64,000 bases of DNA from Octopus vulgaris (taxonomy: Eukaryota), in NCBI GenBank assembly GCA_951406725.2, contig OX597814.1, positions 102,610,001 through 102,674,000 of the forward strand. Reading direction: 5' to 3'. This document shows positions 45,438 through 60,400 of the stretch, in pieces. A program made the position numbers. Each line of letters opens with the position of its first letter. The first letter of the stretch is position 1.

Positions 45438-48400
45438 ACAACAACAACAACAACAACTTCAAATACTTAGAAAGTGGTCTCCACAAAATTCAAGAGAGGG
45501 TCCTTTTTCAAAATAAATGCAGATATGAACGCAAAACTTCATATACTGCATTACCTGCCCAAACTGCAAAGAAAATTACATTGGCAAAACAAATAATTCC
45601 CTCCGCCGATGTGCAAGAATCCACAGGCAACATATCCGACAAGAAGAATTATGCAAGATTCCATTAAGTAAGCATCTGGAAATATGCAGCGATGGGAAAA
45701 TTCAATAATTTTCCCTTTTACAAATGTGCACGGAATGATCCGCAATACTGAAAGGCAATACTGAAGGTAAAGCGAGATCTCGAAAGCACGCCGAGGGTCA
45801 ATGTAATCGACTTAACCCCTCTCCCGAAACTGCTGGCAAAAATTTGAAATCAATATGTTAGGAGTATTTAAGGTGACGAGCTGGCAGAATCGTTATCTCG
45901 CCGGGCAAAATGCTTCGTGGTATTTCGTTCGTCCTTACGTTCCGAGTTAAAATTCCGTCGAAGTTGATTTTACCTTTCATCCTGACCACTGGAGTGGATG
46001 TGATTGACTTAACCCCTTCCCGAAATTGCTGGCTTTGTGCCAAAATTTGAAATCAATATATATCTGTATATTTATACATGAATGTTCATCGCCTGAATAT
46101 CCTCAGTCTTTATTTCTCTTTATTTTCATGTATATATGTATGTATATCTTATATATCTAGCCCAAGCGGTTTTATTTGTATATTTGCATTATTATCTCCA
46201 TATTCTGTTCACCTGGATTCCTCTTATAGCCATTCCTTACTCCGCGGACTTGGCCCTCGGTAAGATTTTAGAGTATAAGTTAAAATCATTTGAACACTAT
46301 TGAATAATATTATTAAAGTCTCACATTGACAGAATACCTTGGAATTTTATAAGAGTCAAAATGAAGTAGTGGAGTTCATAACGTTTTCCTTAATATTAAC
46401 GATGTAAATTCATATTTTAAGTCGCCGACAAAATACTGCGTAAATTTTCCGCAAATCACCCTCTTATCGTCTTAGAAAAAAGTGTATTCCTTTGCGCACA
46501 TTGCCAGAGAAAAAAGATGCGATCGTTACGGTTAGAATGCACTGGTCATCTGTCTAACTTACCTGGGAGTAAAGAAGAACACCACAGCATATACCATAAT
46601 GTCAGAAAATATTAATTTAATTTTTATTTTATTCGTAACAGAATTAAAAAGTACAAGATTCGAGTATTTTGTAATATTAGTGCATGTTAAATAGTTTCAA
46701 TAGAAATTTGAAACAATAACGCACATATTTTGTACAAATGCTATCTCATGAAAAAAAGTATACGTTAAGCTATGAATTGTAAGGGACTTAACTGTTGTTA
46801 AATCCATAATAGCCTCCCTTGGATCGAATAGTAAATGCTTGAAAAAAGTTAACTCAGTACTAGGTTGTCCCCAATTCTCTCTTTCTCTCTCTCTCTCAGT
46901 CACACACCCATACATACATACAGACAGACAGACATACACACATACACACATACAAACATACACACAGAAACACATACATACACACACACATACACACACA
47001 TACGTACAAAAGCAACAGAAAATGATGAGTGTTCTCCAAATGCAATCCATTAGTCGCTCAGTGAAAATTTTTAAGACATTCCAATGATTCTCTGAGTTTT
47101 TTTAGGTGAACAGACGTATATACTTCTGTGTGTACATCAACAGCTCAACCAACACGCCCACTCAACCACATATGTACTAACACCGGGAAATCTCTTAACT
47201 CAAAATGTCTTCTTTCTCGTTATTTATTTTTCCTATTACCTAAATATATTCGCAAATTTTAGTATTTAGTTCACTTTTTTTCTATTCCATGGCATTCACT
47301 TCTTTCCTCTTCCATTCACATCACTTCTGGTCTGATCCCTTTGCTCTCGTATTTGACTCTCACATTTTTGCAGCATAAAATAGGACGACAACCGGTGCAC
47401 GGCTGCACTACACTGTACTAGCCTTGCATATTCTTGCTCTCTCCTTTTTGTATTGCTCAGGCACTGGCTTATCTTTGGAGTTTTCTGACCAAATGCCATT
47501 CAGAAAATAGAAAATTAATTCATTTTCAAGAAATTAAGAAAAAAAATGATAAAAACGTTTCATACTTTATCATGTGAGATTTGGCTGTTGCTTCTAGCAG
47601 GTGCAACCACAATTGAGGCTGTGTGACGATTGCAGGGAGGAGTGAAGCTAAAGGGTAAGAATCGTAATATTAAAAAAAAGCGAAATTTTTAGATGTCAAA
47701 CGAAAAACTAATTAGTGATGAAGAGAAGTGTTCGATATTTATTGATAATATATTATAAACACTTCGATCTATTATTTGCATTAAATCATATTTGGAATTC
47801 TTCACAAACTGCGCAGTAAAACAGATTTTATTTTGCATAAAAGAAAATAATACAACGTAAAGTATACTAGCCATCTCAACATGGCTAACCACTAAGGGTG
47901 GGTGTTACTGTAGCTTTTAGCCCCAGGAGATCATTGTCTCCAGCTGGCTTTAGGCACACTTTCTGTGCTCTTATGGTATTTGCAAAGGGAGGTCATCCCT
48001 CTCTCGTCAACCTAAGTGATACGCACGGACTGCAGTTTCTAGGTATTTGCCTGTCTTCGACGTACGGCAATCACCGGTTTTCGATGAATTTATCTTTATT
48101 ATGATCAAGTGATCTAACATAGAATTGGGACATTACAGAACAAAACAATTACAAAAATGCTATGCAAATTCGAATGAAATTATAAAAATTACAAAAATAA
48201 AATTTTACGTAACTTGAACGAACACTTGGCTTACTTTGCCTTGAAACGAAACCTTGGCTTACTTTTGCCTTTATCACGAGAACTTTTAGTGCGTATGTTT
48301 TCTTTTTTTTTATTATTTTTTTATTTTAAACAGTTATGTACAGTGAAAGGGAATGGGAGGTACCAGTTTCAATTTTGAACCCGGCAGTCTATAAATCCCA

Positions 48401-57400: not shown

Positions 57401-60400
57401 GTGTTTTTTCCTTCCACTCGTCTTCCTTTATTTTTGCAAAACGAGTGGTCGACTTAGTGTCTGCAGACTTACTGAATAATTTCAGTTTTGAAAATTTAAA
57501 ATACTTGAACACTCTTTCGTTTTTCTCGTCGAATGCTACAACCTTTTCATTTTTTTTAATCAATTTTTTCCAATCTTGTTTTATGGGGAGGGGCTTGGCG
57601 AACTGTGTTCCAATGAATAGTGCCGTGGGGGTGGGGCTGGGGAATTTGTTTTGTATGCATCTCTGCGAGGTTTGCAGATTTTTTCTTTGTTTGGGGAGGG
57701 GAGTCCAGGGTATTTTCTTTTTTTCTTTTGTGTGTTACCTGTGTAAATTCCATTTGTTCATTTTTATCTTCCGTTTCGGTTCCCTTCCTTGTCGCAGTCT
57801 TGGGGTCTTTTTCCGCCTTTTCTTTTTCTGTGTTTGAAGCACTTTGAGGAGGGGCTTCGCTGTTTTTCTTTTTTTTTATGCAGTTCGAGCGGACGTGACC
57901 CTTTTCACCACATTTGAAACACCTACGTCTGCGCCCCTCCACTGACACTCTCATTGTAATTCCCTCCTCAATAAATACCCTATCGAGTAAGTTTTCTAGC
58001 ACATTATTTTCTGCTTGAACGAGGAGTTCGAGCGCTTGTCCCTTCCAGTTTACCTCCTCTTTCCTTTTCATCTGCAGAATTGAGACTTTCTGCTCTACGT
58101 CGTGCAGAACCACCGCTGCTACCCACATTATATCATATCCTCTTGGAATGTCTTCCACATATAGTTTCGCAGTTCTTTTTCCCATATATGTAGGTAGTAA
58201 CATGATGTCCTCACTTTTTAAGGTCATCGATGAAATCTCTCTTGCCACATCAGCCGAGTCGAAATGTGCTTCAACGGTAGCGCTGCGGGCACCTCGACCG
58301 ACGTGGCGAATTTTGCTCCACACTGGGGTCAAGCACTTCTCTACTATTTCGTTCTTCACGTCCATTATTTTTTTCTCTTTGTTACTGTAAACCTTGTATA
58401 CGACTATCTTAGCCTTTATTTCCTGTAATTTCGCTTGCGGCGGTACCAGTTTAATTTCATTGCCTTCCTTTTTTACCAAGTTCCGGTATTCGAATAACTG
58501 TTCAATTTTAAATTCTACTTCCGTTATGTTTCCGCCACTGCGGCCGAAAAAGACTGTTTTTTTAACCTCGATATCCTTCTGTTCGCCTTTTCCCATCACG
58601 GGAAAGTTGCTCCTCGACGCCAAGTCGAACTCCATTTCTCAAATTATGAGAACCAATTTTTCAATAAAAAAAAAATTACCCCGAAGGTAATAACAATGTT
58701 TATACACAGAATTTTCAGCCCCGTAGGGCGAAAATTACTATCACACAACGGACAACTGTTCAATTCACGAGCAAACACAAACAACGACGAACAAAAAACG
58801 AACTCACTCAACAAAATAGGCAGCTAACTTCTCAATACGCAGATGAAAGAGGGGTCCCTAGACGAGTCAAAACACCGGTTTTCGATGAAGTGAGACCGTT
58901 TGCAAATCCTTATTTATGGTTTTTCCAGTAACTTTTCGTCACTGATTTCGAAAAACTGTCTGCAAGCAATAATAAATCTCTGAACGAGATGTAAACAGTA
59001 ACTGCACTAGCCATCTCAATATGGCTCTTAGTCAGTGTCTTAGTCAGCTGAGTACTTGACAGACACTGACTTTGCTGACGACATCGCTCTTATCAGTGAT
59101 TCTCTCTCCAATGCCCAGTCTCTTTTACAATCTCTTGAACAAGCCTCAAATTGTGTAGGTCTTTACCTCAATGAGGCCAAGACTGAATACATAAACAAGT
59201 GCCTGTCCAACAGTGATTGCAACAGCCATACTCTCAACAATGCGCCCTTAAATATGGTTTCTGATTACAAATATCTTGGGTCATACATATCATCATCTGA
59301 AAAAGACTTTCTAACTAGAAAGGGTATGGCCTGGTCAGCCTGTAATGACATGCATAAGATCTGGTCATCAAATCTAAGTAGAGACTTCAAACTTGAAATA
59401 TTCAAAGCCACAGTCGAACCAATTCTACTATATGGCTCAGAAACCTGGACGTTATCAAAGAAGCTTGAGAGGCGGTTGGATGGAACCTACACTCGCCTCC
59501 TTATAAGAGCTCAAAATCTCTCGTGGAAGCGCCATCCAACCAAAATGCAAATATATGGGAAACTACCACCTGTGTCATCTCTTGTGAAAGGTAAGAGAGT
59601 CCAGTTTGCTGGACATTGTTGTAGAGCTGAAAAAGAGGTAATTTCTACTCTTCTCCTCTGGAAGCCATCTACTCGCAATACCAGAGGGCGCACACTCTCC
59701 TACCCTGATGTAATCTCCAGGGATACAGGCATCCAGCAACAGGACCTCCGTAATGCCATGATGGACCGTGAAGTCTGGCGTAGCATGGTAAATTCCATTG
59801 TCTCGACCACGGTCGAACAATGATGATGATGATGATCAATATGGCTAACCACTAAGGGTGGGTGTTACAATAGTTACTATTCTTACCGTTTCAACGTTGA
59901 CGCCTCCCACTACATCGTATACTCTTGCATGTCTCCGCCCATTTTTGCTTCCTTCATTAACTCATACTCTTCCTCTATTGGTAAATATATTTATTATTCT
60001 CTCGCGCTCTCTCCCTCTTTGTATGTCTCTCTCTCTCTCTTTCTCTTCGCCTCCATCTCTCATCTCATCATAAATTACTGAATGCTTCCCCCCCCCTCCC
60101 TTGCTTTCTGTCTTAACTCCCCTGTTCTCTTTCTTATTAAACACAAATAGCATTTTCTTTCTCCCGCCCTCAAAACATATCCACCCAATTCTCCCTCTTT
60201 ATCTCCTTTCTCTCGGTACTTCATTATATATTCATTTTAACCACTCTGGCTACCTTACTATATCGTTCACCTCATCCTCTCCCTCACTTCCTAAACGTAT
60301 ATATATATATATATATTTTTACATTATATAAAAGGGCTTAGTAAAATAAATTACTTTGCCGCATACTGAACTCATTAGAAATAGCAGCTGAAAAACTTTT

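What the first reader, a model, noticed from the sequence alone, without database searches (positions are those of the whole stretch)
48072..58888. Two divergent Tx1 retrotransposons stacked at one identical 16-bp site: a candidate new sequence-specific target
Seen: CACCGGTTTTCGATGA occurs three times (48072-48087, 53563-53578, 58873-58888), exactly bracketing two same-orientation Tx1 elements. The two elements differ throughout: ORF1 proteins are clearly divergent and the UTRs are largely unalignable, so this is not a tandem duplication of one insertion. Established: Tx1-clade APE elements are often target-specific (Keno in U2 snRNA, Dewa in tRNA spacers, Xenopus Tx1L in a DNA transposon). 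Inference: two related subfamilies inserted independently at the same nick with the same 16-nt stagger, so their endonuclease recognises this sequence. I do not recognise the target as any known snRNA, tRNA or rRNA, so the target class may be new.
Basis: partly seen in the sequence, partly recalled or inferred. Interest (0 to 1): 0.9.

Follow-up and report, generated by a model that had tools for sequence, protein, structure and literature searches.

The report
Two LINE retrotransposons stacked at one site
Two dead but clearly different copies of a site-choosing jumping gene (a Tx1-like LINE, probably in a cephalopod genome) sit head to tail at exactly the same 16-base target, a pattern already known for this kind of element, and the identity of the target could not be established.

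Summary
CACCGGTTTTCGATGA occurs exactly three times (48072, 53563, 58873). It brackets two same-orientation, minus-strand LINEs: A (48088-53562) and B (53579-58872). Each has ORF1 (CCHC) and ORF2 (APE + RT + zf-RVT). Both ORF2s are broken.

A and B are not a local duplication. ORF2 DNA is about 82% identical with dN/dS 0.10-0.34. ORF1 is 48% identical in protein with saturated synonymous sites. Most UTR sequence does not align, yet the three 16-mers are identical. Both elements lack poly(A), share a roughly 60-nt 3' terminus ending just after AATAAA, and start with a T-run followed by GA.

The best reading is sequential target-primed insertion of two lineages at one site with a 16-nt stagger, which implies sequence-specific nicking.

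This is not a new kind of system. Kojima 2015 describes Tx1 families with a 16-nt TSD and tandem copies "sandwiching a TSD". In an RT tree the window element sits next to an array-forming family and inside a group holding U2-splitting and 5S-adjacent APE LINEs.

The target is anonymous non-coding DNA with no Rfam, tRNA or Pfam match. No other copy of either element could be examined, so family-wide specificity and a "new target class" stay unproven. I file it as a new member of a known kind.

The parts
58873..58888 (-). 16-bp target copy 1 (upstream copy in element orientation, TCATCGAAAACCGGTG on the minus strand); contiguous with the upstream host flank
   Evidence: exact match; adjoining flank shows no similarity to the element UTRs
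53579..58872 (-). Element B, full-length APE-type LINE (5294 bp), degenerate
57556..58638 (-). B ORF1 (open frame of 360 aa; Met at residue 2; one CCHC knuckle)
   Evidence: zf-CCHC E 4.6e-4 (20.6 bits, cut-off 20.8); Atlas: CCHC clusters, Mollusca the commonest phylum
53821..57172 (-). B ORF2 (APE, RT, zf-RVT) in 4 open pieces (56939-57328, 55634-56938, 54918-55706, 53821-54975): one in-frame stop and two frame changes
53563..53578 (-). 16-bp target copy 2, between the 3' end of B and the 5' end of A
48088..53562 (-). Element A, full-length APE-type LINE (5475 bp), degenerate
52187..53365 (-). A ORF1 (open frame of 392 aa; Met at residue 19); 48% identical to B ORF1 and has the same C-x2-C-x4-H-x4-C stretch
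   Evidence: no Pfam hit at E<=0.01
48428..51772 (-). A ORF2 (APE, RT, zf-RVT region) in 5 open pieces (50243-51790, 50029-50295, 49008-49883, 48776-49021, 48428-48775)
48072..48087 (-). 16-bp target copy 3 (downstream copy), contiguous with the downstream host flank
48088..48150 (-). Conserved 3'-terminal module of A (ends ...ATCATAATAAAGATAAATT, no poly(A))
   Evidence: alignment; positive control (score 43 against shuffle mean 21.2, 0/300 shuffles reach it)
53579..53641 (-). Conserved 3'-terminal module of B (ends ...ATCATAATAAAGAATTA, no poly(A))
47909..48071 (.). Host flank on the low-coordinate side: part of a 296-bp target-bearing segment, non-coding and unique in the window
58889..59005 (.). 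Host flank on the high-coordinate side: the rest of the 296-bp target-bearing segment
47866..47908 (+). 43-bp motif, copy 1, bounding the target-bearing segment
59006..59868 (+). 43-bp motif, copy 2 (59006-59026 plus 59847-59868). It is split by a 5'-truncated non-LTR RT fragment (59027-59835, + strand, ends in a TGA repeat) that has its own 11-bp duplication (59016-59026 / 59836-59846)

Best explanation
A and B are dead, full-length copies of two related lineages of one site-specific APE-type (Tx1-like) LINE family. They entered the same genomic site one after the other by target-primed reverse transcription.

In element orientation the site reads ...CTCACT | TCATCGAAAACCGGTG | ATTGCC... The element's endonuclease nicks the bottom strand at the left bar. 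Reverse transcription starts there. The top strand is cut 16 nt downstream at the right bar, so the 16 nt are duplicated.

The first insertion left two copies of the 16-mer, each still joined to one original flank. The second element used one of those copies with the same two cut points. That gives target-B-target-A-target.

Shown: the anatomy; the independent evolutionary history of A and B; the identical junctions; the absence of poly(A); and the shared 3' terminus.

Inferred:
1. The endonuclease supplies the specificity, and its determinants lie within the 16-mer plus at most one flank. This follows because the second insertion happened with the other flank replaced by element sequence.
2. 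AATAAA ends only 6-8 nt before the element's end. Transcripts would therefore run into the downstream target copy before cleavage. That target-derived RNA tail would pair with the nicked bottom strand and fix the start of reverse transcription, which would explain exact tail-less 3' junctions.

The order of the two insertions is not resolved.
For: Three exact 16-mers at the element boundaries; 0 of 100 shuffles give 3 or more.

Independent history of A and B:
- In five ORF2 segments dN/dS is 0.10-0.34 with dS about 0.5.
- In ORF1 pS is 0.75 (saturated) and pN is 0.30.
- Identity along the elements is 0.54-0.67 in the 5'UTR/ORF1 region, 0.79-0.90 in ORF2 and 0.44-0.55 in the 3'UTR.

Neutral decay in place would be even along the elements and would also have hit the 16-mers. 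At the 18% divergence of the best-kept part, keeping 32 further positions identical has a probability of about 0.82^32 = 0.002 (my arithmetic).

The outer 16-mers adjoin sequence unrelated to the element UTRs: 142-244 of 300 shuffles score at least as high.

Junctions: both 3' ends lack poly(A) and share the last ~60 nt, including ATCATAATAAAGA (0/300 shuffles reach the score). Both 5' ends begin with a T-run followed by GA directly after the 16-mer.

Domains: Exo_endo_phos, RVT_1, zf-RVT, and CCHC in ORF1.

Relatives behave the same way. The tree has 31 rows that I picked, and element A's fragment was left out.
- B groups with three proteins, one of them from Argonauta hians (SH-aLRT 97).
- That clade is sister (100) to a family found as head-to-tail arrays in 38 of 38 loci from one assembly.
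- Both lie inside a group (91) that holds an APE LINE splitting a U2 snRNA gene and one next to a 5S rRNA gene.

Literature: Kojima 2015 (PMC4494074, passages read) reports a 16-nt TSD for Tx1-mobilised SINEU-3 and tandem copies 'sandwiching a TSD', which the author ascribes to sequential insertion.
Against: - There are only two insertions, both at one locus. The window holds no third copy and no empty site, so specificity across the family is not shown.
- The identity and copy number of the target are unknown.
- Both copies are inactive, so nothing about enzyme activity can be read from them.
- In the sister array family, neighbouring copies can have 100% identical ORF2 but 81% identical ORF1. 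Its junctions show no separable target block. Arrays in this lineage can therefore also be shaped by recombination or gene conversion, not only by repeated targeting.
- The Tx1 assignment has no named reference behind it. 0 of 6, 3 of 120 and 0 of 120 listed database hits carried a name, and none of the names said Tx1. The tree root is arbitrary.
- The read-through pairing step is inference only. The predicted 3' hairpin rests on two sequences and one compensatory pair.
Confidence: 0.7

Rival explanations
1. A single event made a chimera. While copying A's RNA at the target, the reverse transcriptase reached the 5' end of that RNA and jumped onto the 3' end of a B transcript carrying a read-through target tail. 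One insertion then produced target-B-16mer-A-target.
For: The position of AATAAA, 6-8 nt before each element end, predicts transcripts that end in target sequence. A jump onto such a transcript would put exactly one 16-mer between B and A. End-to-end template jumping by LINE reverse transcriptases is established knowledge (recalled, not looked up here).
Against: Both elements are full length with clean ends. Kojima 2015 judged sequential insertion more likely for the analogous SINEU-3 dimers. The sequence offers nothing that separates this model from two events. Even under this model, B's source copy must sit in the same target, so the association of both lineages with the 16-mer remains.
Confidence: 0.12
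2. The 16-mer is not host DNA but the 3' terminus of the element itself. The outermost upstream copy would be the stump of a third, almost wholly 5'-truncated element, and copies would pile up end to end without any target duplication.
For: In the sister array family the copies abut directly, and AATAAAG is followed by about 17 nt before the next 5' end, with no separable target block. Here AATAAAG is followed by 21-23 nt if the 16-mer is counted in, a normal distance for a poly(A) signal.
Against: It needs a 16-bp stump. The flank upstream of that copy has no similarity to either 3'UTR. No poly(A) follows the 16-mer. The bases between AATAAAG and the 16-mer differ between A and B while the 16-mer is identical, as expected if it comes from the host.
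Confidence: 0.07
3. The two elements were inserted at the same point of two different copies of a repeated target. Unequal crossing-over or gene conversion later brought them together.
For: Neighbours in the sister arrays show signs of concerted evolution: ORF2 100% identical against ORF1 81% identical. The target segment is bounded by two copies of a 43-bp motif, which hints at some repeat.
Against: Only 16 bp lie between B and A, whereas crossing-over between repeat units would leave a whole unit. The 296-bp target-bearing segment has no other copy in the 64 kb. This rival also still requires the same insertion point twice.
Confidence: 0.05
4. A single insertion was duplicated in tandem and the two copies then diverged in place.
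For: Same orientation, same boundaries.
Against: Divergence is very uneven and shows purifying selection, which decay in place cannot produce. The 16-mers are untouched while the elements differ by 18% or more.
Confidence: 0.01
5. This is a coincidence or a local hot spot of a non-specific L1-like element.
For: None specific. Nested LINE insertions are common in repeat-rich DNA such as this window.
Against: Both cut positions are identical to the base. There is no poly(A) and no A-rich target. The nearest relatives are site-specific or form arrays.
Confidence: 0.04

Closest known systems
Tx1-Mar LINEs and the SINEU-3 elements they mobilise in crocodilians (Kojima 2015, Genome Biol Evol, PMC4494074; passages read)
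   Same: APE-type Tx1 elements with a preferred site in an interspersed sequence rather than an RNA gene. The inferred TSD is 16 nt. [quoted passage not shown]
   Different: The host is different (the nearest named protein here is from the cephalopod Argonauta hians, 59% identity). The 16-nt sequence is different. There the target is a named mariner family, here it is unidentified. There hundreds of copies were tabulated, here two. Here the stacked copies are two diverged autonomous lineages, not two SINE copies. The supplementary figures of that paper, which list targets, could not be seen.
Tx1L of Xenopus laevis in the DNA transposon Tx1D (as summarised in PMC4494074; the primary paper PMC85248 was not held)
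   Same: A LINE with an APE endonuclease that inserts at one site of another repeated sequence.
   Different: No DNA-transposon features (terminal inverted repeats, transposase remnants) were found around the target here. No sequence comparison with Tx1L was possible.
Keno (U2 snRNA) and Mutsu (5S rRNA), RNA-gene-specific Tx1 families (Keno: PMC4494074 and PMC4640811, passages; the name Mutsu and its target are recalled from Kojima and Fujiwara 2004, which I did not read)
   Same: Same domain plan. Elements of this type fetched here are 38% (L040, splits a U2 gene) and 36.5% (L039, next to a 5S gene) identical to B in the RT. They fall in the same supported group of the tree.
   Different: The window's target is no Rfam family. 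L040 ends in a run of A before the U2 sequence, whereas A and B have no A-tail.
Array-forming sister family in contigs of an assembly labelled 'MAG: uncultured Arenicella sp.' (CAXXMW01..., loci L001-L038)
   Same: It is the closest family with DNA available (RT 47-53% identical; sister clade with support 100). Copies are head to tail, mix subfamilies, have conserved ORF2 and variable ORF1, carry AATAAAG close to the 3' end, have no poly(A), and start with a T-run followed by G.
   Different: The copies are intact and the arrays are long (period about 6.4-6.9 kb). No separable 16-nt block lies between copies. The window's 16-mer is absent there: allowing up to 3 mismatches gives 1 hit in 601,571 bases, on the opposite strand.
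R1 and R2 elements of rDNA
   Same: Site-specific LINEs with exact 3' junctions and no need for poly(A). For R1, pairing of co-transcribed downstream target RNA with the target has been proposed (recalled).
   Different: R2 has a restriction-like endonuclease and a single ORF. R1 belongs to another APE clade. In the PDB search R2 proteins score about the same as human L1 ORF2p (66.7 against 69.4 bits), so neither is close.

Membership tests
Tx1 clade of non-LTR retrotransposons | The RT domain groups with named Tx1 references (Tx1L, Keno and others) in a phylogeny such as RTclass1 | not testable with these tools
   No named Tx1 sequence could be obtained. As a stand-in, the 31-row tree places B inside a group (SH-aLRT 91) with a U2-splitting and a 5S-adjacent APE LINE.
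Tx1 clade of non-LTR retrotransposons | ORF2 with an N-terminal apurinic-like endonuclease, then RT, then a C-terminal zinc-binding region | tested here: met
   Exo_endo_phos (A 7.6e-13, B 1.2e-8), RVT_1 (B 1.7e-26; A 2.5e-4, below the cut-off) and zf-RVT (B 2.6e-10). This plan is shared with the L1 clade, so it does not discriminate between them.
Tx1 clade of non-LTR retrotransposons | ORF1 with a CCHC zinc knuckle | tested here: inconclusive
   B: zf-CCHC at 20.6 bits against a cut-off of 20.8. A: no Pfam hit, but the same Cys/His spacing shows in the alignment. The Atlas look-alikes are CCHC clusters.
Tx1 clade of non-LTR retrotransposons | Target preference shown by a shared flank in a sizeable share of copies (Kojima 2015 used more than 20% of flanks) | tested here: inconclusive
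   2 of 2 copies share the site, but they lie at one locus. There are no further copies in the window, and no eukaryotic genome collection was open.
L1 clade in the strict sense (non-specific, poly(A)-dependent) | A 3' poly(A) tail and an A/T-rich nick site | tested here: not met
   Both 3' ends stop at ...AAAGATAAATT and ...AAAGAATTA and directly abut TCATCG. Human L1 ORF2p scores only 69.4 bits, against 149-155 blastp bits for the U2- and 5S-associated elements (the two scoring schemes are only roughly comparable).
RNA-gene-targeting Tx1 families (Keno/U2, Mutsu/5S, Dewa/tRNA) | The insertion splits a U2, 5S or tRNA gene | tested here: not met
   The Rfam E-value scan of 46000-61000 finds nothing in the flanks. 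The only nearby hit is a 30-bit snoRNA match (gathering score 63, E 0.22) lying across the internal B/A junction. There are 0 tRNAs in the window and 0 in the script-rebuilt site.
R1 clade (the other APE clade with target-specific members) | The RT groups with R1/TRAS/SART references | not tested
   No reference sequences were available.

The most novel reading that the evidence does not exclude
The two lineages belong to a cephalopod Tx1-like family whose endonuclease reads a long (about 16 nt or more) sequence that lies in neither an RNA gene, a microsatellite nor a known transposon. The target would then be a low-copy anonymous site. The few available sites would be used again and again, and initiation would be guided by pairing of a read-through target tail on the RNA. 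That would be a new target type for an APE-type LINE and a compact, protein-encoded, long-site nickase coupled to an RT.
Probability: 0.2. Interest if true: 0.55.

Novelty: new member of a known kind. Interest (0 to 1): 0.33.

Why it matters
Site-specific LINEs show how a selfish element can limit the damage it does to its host. They are also being developed as tools for writing DNA at chosen sites; R2 reviews appeared in the listing, which I did not read. An APE-type family with a long, defined target in a cephalopod would add one more natural specificity. It would also give a pair of diverged endonucleases (79% identical in protein) that keep the same site, which helps in mapping the determinants of recognition.

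The locus itself constrains those determinants. The second insertion occurred with one flank already replaced by element sequence, so recognition needs at most the 16-mer plus one flank.

For genome annotation the lesson is ordinary: stacked Tx1-like copies with an identical short spacer are sequential insertions, not composite elements.

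Tried and rejected
Target identity. Each of these found nothing:
- Rfam E-value scan of 46000-61000.
- ARAGORN on the window and on a script-rebuilt pre-insertion site.
- Pfam on 8 flank ORFs: 0 hits at E<=0.01, and two sub-threshold hits at E 0.022 and 0.041.
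- Self-comparison of the rebuilt locus for inverted or direct repeats: only the 43-bp motif pair and an unrelated 1.1-kb palindrome.
- Sensitive search of the 296-bp target segment against the window and its neighbours.
- Full-text search for the 16-mer in either orientation: 0 papers.

Other copies. tblastn of the element proteins against the window found none. The only open collection, genome contigs, holds prokaryote assemblies. It gave 43 loci of relatives but none of this family and none with the 16-mer.

Naming the clade. Three protein searches and the HMMER representative search (37,320 hits at E<=0.001, best full-length hits about 52% identical) returned no Tx1 name. The Atlas gave only CCHC clusters. 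The PDB holds L1 and R2 proteins only.

A remnant third element. The outer flanks do not resemble the UTRs.

A target block in the sister arrays. One array start (L016) and two array ends (L008, L025) showed no clear duplication.

Order of insertion. Counts of ORF breaks (A in 5 pieces, B in 4) do not discriminate.

Prior print. Searches found no report of a cephalopod Tx1 target. I read passages only of PMC4494074, PMC4640811, PMC13282606, PMC8967140 and PMC10294476. The supplementary files of PMC4494074, which list Tx1 targets, are closed and may already hold related targets.

Not checked. Repbase and Dfam were not available. The source genome was not available. Structure prediction, fold search and complex prediction were not used because no claim needed them.

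Full report
**Observation.** The 16-mer CACCGGTTTTCGATGA occurs three times in the 64-kb window, all exact, at 48072, 53563 and 58873. No further site appears even with two mismatches allowed. The chance expectation is 0.02, and 0 of 100 shuffles gave three. The window holds no N.

Reading the region and listing frames shows that both bracketed elements run on the minus strand. In element orientation the order is: upstream host flank (58889 upward, reverse-complemented), target copy, B (58872 down to 53579), target copy, A (53562 down to 48088), target copy, downstream host flank (48071 downward).

**Anatomy.** Each element has an ORF1 (A: 392-aa open frame; B: 360 aa) and an ORF2.
- Pfam finds the apurinic-type endonuclease domain: Exo_endo_phos, 7.6e-13 in A and 1.2e-8 in B.
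- It finds reverse transcriptase: RVT_1, 1.7e-26 in B, and 2.5e-4 (below the cut-off) in A's fragment.
- It finds the zf-RVT region: 2.6e-10 in B.
- ORF1 of B has a borderline CCHC knuckle (20.6 bits against a cut-off of 20.8). ORF1 of A aligns with the same Cys/His spacing.
- Both ORF2s are broken: A falls into five open pieces and B into four.
- The window holds no other copy of this family.

**A and B are separate lineages.**
- blastn aligns only the ORF2 region (81.8% over 3.5 kb) plus 115 nt of 5'UTR.
- A global alignment gives 0.54-0.67 identity through the 5'UTR and ORF1, 0.79-0.90 through ORF2 and 0.44-0.55 in the 3'UTR.
- ORF1 proteins are 48% identical. ORF2 pieces are 78-82% identical.
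- Nei-Gojobori counts give dN/dS of 0.10-0.34 at dS about 0.5 in five ORF2 segments. In ORF1 the synonymous sites are saturated (pS 0.75, pN 0.30).

So most differences arose under selection, while the lineages were still active elements. ORF1 also has a much older split than ORF2, which makes the elements mosaic. Decay in place after a tandem duplication would be even along the element and would not spare the three 16-mers. At 18% divergence, 32 further identical positions have a probability of about 0.002 (my arithmetic).

**Junctions.**
- Neither element has a poly(A) tail.
- The last ~60 nt of the two 3'UTRs align. They include ATCATAATAAAGA, after which 7 (A) or 5 (B) bases precede the 16-mer. 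The local alignment score is 43 against a shuffle mean of 21, and 0 of 300 shuffles reach it.
- Both 5' ends begin directly after the 16-mer with a T-run followed by GA.
- The host sequence outside the outer 16-mers shows no similarity to the UTRs: 142-244 of 300 shuffles score at least as high. The outer copies therefore do not look like stumps of further elements.
- RNAalifold predicts a weak 3' hairpin with one compensatory pair, and a 5-bp hairpin within the 16-mer. With only two sequences this is a lead only.

**Mechanism.** The simplest account is two rounds of target-primed reverse transcription at one site. The bottom strand is nicked at the upstream edge of the 16-mer and the top strand 16 nt downstream. 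The first insertion doubles the 16-mer, and the second reuses one copy.

For the second event one original flank had already been replaced by element sequence. Recognition therefore needs at most the 16-mer plus one flank (inference).

AATAAA ends 6-8 nt before the element end. Cleavage and polyadenylation would therefore fall in or just beyond the downstream target copy. The RNA would then carry a target-derived tail complementary to the nicked bottom strand. That could set the exact start of cDNA synthesis and explain the tail-less junctions (inference, in line with what I recall being proposed for R1).

**Relatives.**
- Database hits were almost all unnamed. The HMMER representative search found 37,320 proteins at E<=0.001, with the best full-length matches about 52% identical.
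- The word-indexed search found closer fragments: P0157 at 64% and P0158 at 59%. P0158 is named only 'hypothetical protein' of Argonauta hians (3 of 120 listed rows carried a name).
- The Atlas look-alikes of ORF1 are CCHC clusters with Mollusca the commonest phylum.
- Window G+C is about 33-40% outside the elements. A cephalopod host is therefore likely, though this is an inference from the nearest hit.
- Published repeat annotations list L1-Tx1 as a regular LINE class in octopus. One reports 13 recently active families with 421 insertions in O. vulgaris (PMC13282606, passage; also PMC8967140 and PMC10294476, passages). The passages read say nothing about target specificity.

**Comparators with DNA.** The one open contig collection holds prokaryote assemblies. 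An RT-profile scan still returned 43 loci, evidently eukaryotic DNA binned into MAGs.
- 38 of the 43 loci come from one assembly labelled as an Arenicella MAG. All 38 hold two or more head-to-tail copies with a period of about 6.4-6.9 kb. The copies have intact ORF1 and ORF2, AATAAAG near the 3' end, no poly(A), and a 5' start of a T-run followed by G. Neighbouring copies may have 100% identical ORF2 but 81% identical ORF1.
- L040 carries an APE+RT element that splits a U2 snRNA gene. U2 positions 1-27 lie upstream, and the rest follows an A-run at the element's 3' end. A second, degenerate element ends at the same U2 point, and U1 and 5S genes lie nearby. By its target it is Keno-like.
- L039 has an ORF2 followed by a 5S rRNA match.
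- In a quick maximum-likelihood tree, B groups with P0157-P0159 (SH-aLRT 97). This clade is sister to the array family (97; union 100). Both lie in a 23-row group (91) that holds the U2 and 5S elements. The tree has 31 rows: 9 locus ORFs, 21 of the 393 fetched proteins chosen by me, and B. A's fragment was left out.
- RT identity of B is 47-53% to the array family, 38% to L040 and 36.5% to L039. Human L1 ORF2p and R2 proteins in the PDB score 69 and 67 bits.

This supports 'Tx1-like, in a site-specific neighbourhood'. It is not a test against named Tx1 references, which I could not obtain.

**The target.** The host DNA around the site is non-coding and matches no RNA family, tRNA or protein domain. 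The only Rfam hit nearby is a 30-bit snoRNA match, far below its gathering score, lying across the internal B/A junction.

With A, B and a later insertion removed, the site lies in a 296-bp segment bounded by two direct copies of a 43-bp motif: 47866-47908, and 59006-59026 joined to 59847-59868. The second copy is split by a 5'-truncated RT fragment (59027-59835) with its own 11-bp duplication. The 296-bp segment has no other copy in the window and no resemblance to its surroundings. It might be a small interspersed repeat, but I cannot say.

**Comparison with what is known.** Kojima 2015 (PMC4494074; passages read) states the following:
- Many Tx1-clade families show target preference.
- Targets in that paper's tree include transposon superfamilies, satellites, microsatellites, U2, U5 and 5S.
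- SINEU-3, mobilised by Tx1-Mar, has an inferred 16-nt TSD in a mariner family.
- Tandem copies 'sandwiching a TSD' are common and are best explained by sequential insertion.

The window shows that same architecture with two diverged autonomous lineages. It is therefore a new member of a known kind. A new family and perhaps a new target sequence are likely, but a new class of target is undecided.

**Verdict.**
- Observation: confirmed.
- Interpretation: partly supported.
- Independent insertion of two lineages at one 16-nt site: about 0.7.
- Family-wide sequence specificity: plausible but untested.
- Interest is modest (0.33). It would rise if a genome survey showed a long, low-copy, non-genic target.

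Noticed in passing
L001-L038 (contigs CAXXMW010000002.1 to ...18.1, record title 'MAG: uncultured Arenicella sp.'): At least 17 contigs of an assembly labelled as a bacterial MAG consist of head-to-tail arrays of intact Tx1-like LINEs (ORF1 636-739 aa, ORF2 1158-1181 aa, period about 6.4-6.9 kb, units up to 99.7% identical). This looks like eukaryotic DNA binned into a bacterial genome. Neighbouring units can have 100% identical ORF2 but 81% identical ORF1, which suggests module exchange or gene conversion.
   Followed up: partly
L040 (CBDAUV010000067.1, labelled Anaerolineae MAG), 207-6137 and 7792-13241: A eukaryotic U2-U1-5S gene cluster sits in a bacterial-labelled contig. Two different APE LINEs are inserted at the same point of two U2 snRNA genes (Keno-like). 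One is intact (ORF2 1160 aa) and one is degenerate.
   Followed up: partly
L039 (JBOFEZ010000123.1, labelled Fusobacteriaceae MAG), 386-4534: An APE+RT ORF2 of 1284 aa is followed about 180 nt later by a 5S rRNA match (58 bits). It may be a 5S-specific LINE in another misbinned contig.
   Followed up: no
window 59027-59835 (+): A 5'-truncated non-LTR RT fragment (RVT_1 E 1.4e-5, and DUF6451 below its cut-off) ends in a TGA repeat and is flanked by an 11-bp duplication, TCATATGGCT-type (TCAATATGGCT, 59016-59026 / 59836-59846). It is RTE-like by recall only. It splits the second copy of the 43-bp motif.
   Followed up: partly
window 47866-47908 and 59006-59026 + 59847-59868: Two direct copies of a 43-bp motif, partly palindromic (TAGCCAT...ATGGCTA), bound the 296-bp target-bearing segment. 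Their meaning is unknown: a long duplication around a small insertion, or the ends of a small repeat.
   Followed up: partly
window 60315-61445: A 1.1-kb sequence that is its own reverse complement (96% over 1135 bp), with further repeats at 60767-60994 and 61408-61538. Both strands give a sub-threshold miRNA-precursor hit at 60802-60959 (50 bits against a gathering score of 230). It is probably a foldback-type repeat.
   Followed up: no
window 32559-33131 (+) and 40676-43131 (+): Other transposon remains: a mariner-type transposase fragment (Transposase_1, 3.8e-24) and another RT-bearing LINE (RVT_1, 2.1e-11). The window is repeat-rich throughout, with microsatellite-like tracts at 470-1030, 5750-6225, 26665-26820 and 46900-47010.
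   Followed up: no
window 48088-53562 compared with 53579-58872: ORF1 and ORF2 of the two elements have very different divergence: ORF1 synonymous sites are saturated, while ORF2 dS is about 0.5. The same mosaic pattern appears in the sister arrays, which suggests recurrent exchange of the ORF1/5'UTR module in this lineage.
   Followed up: partly
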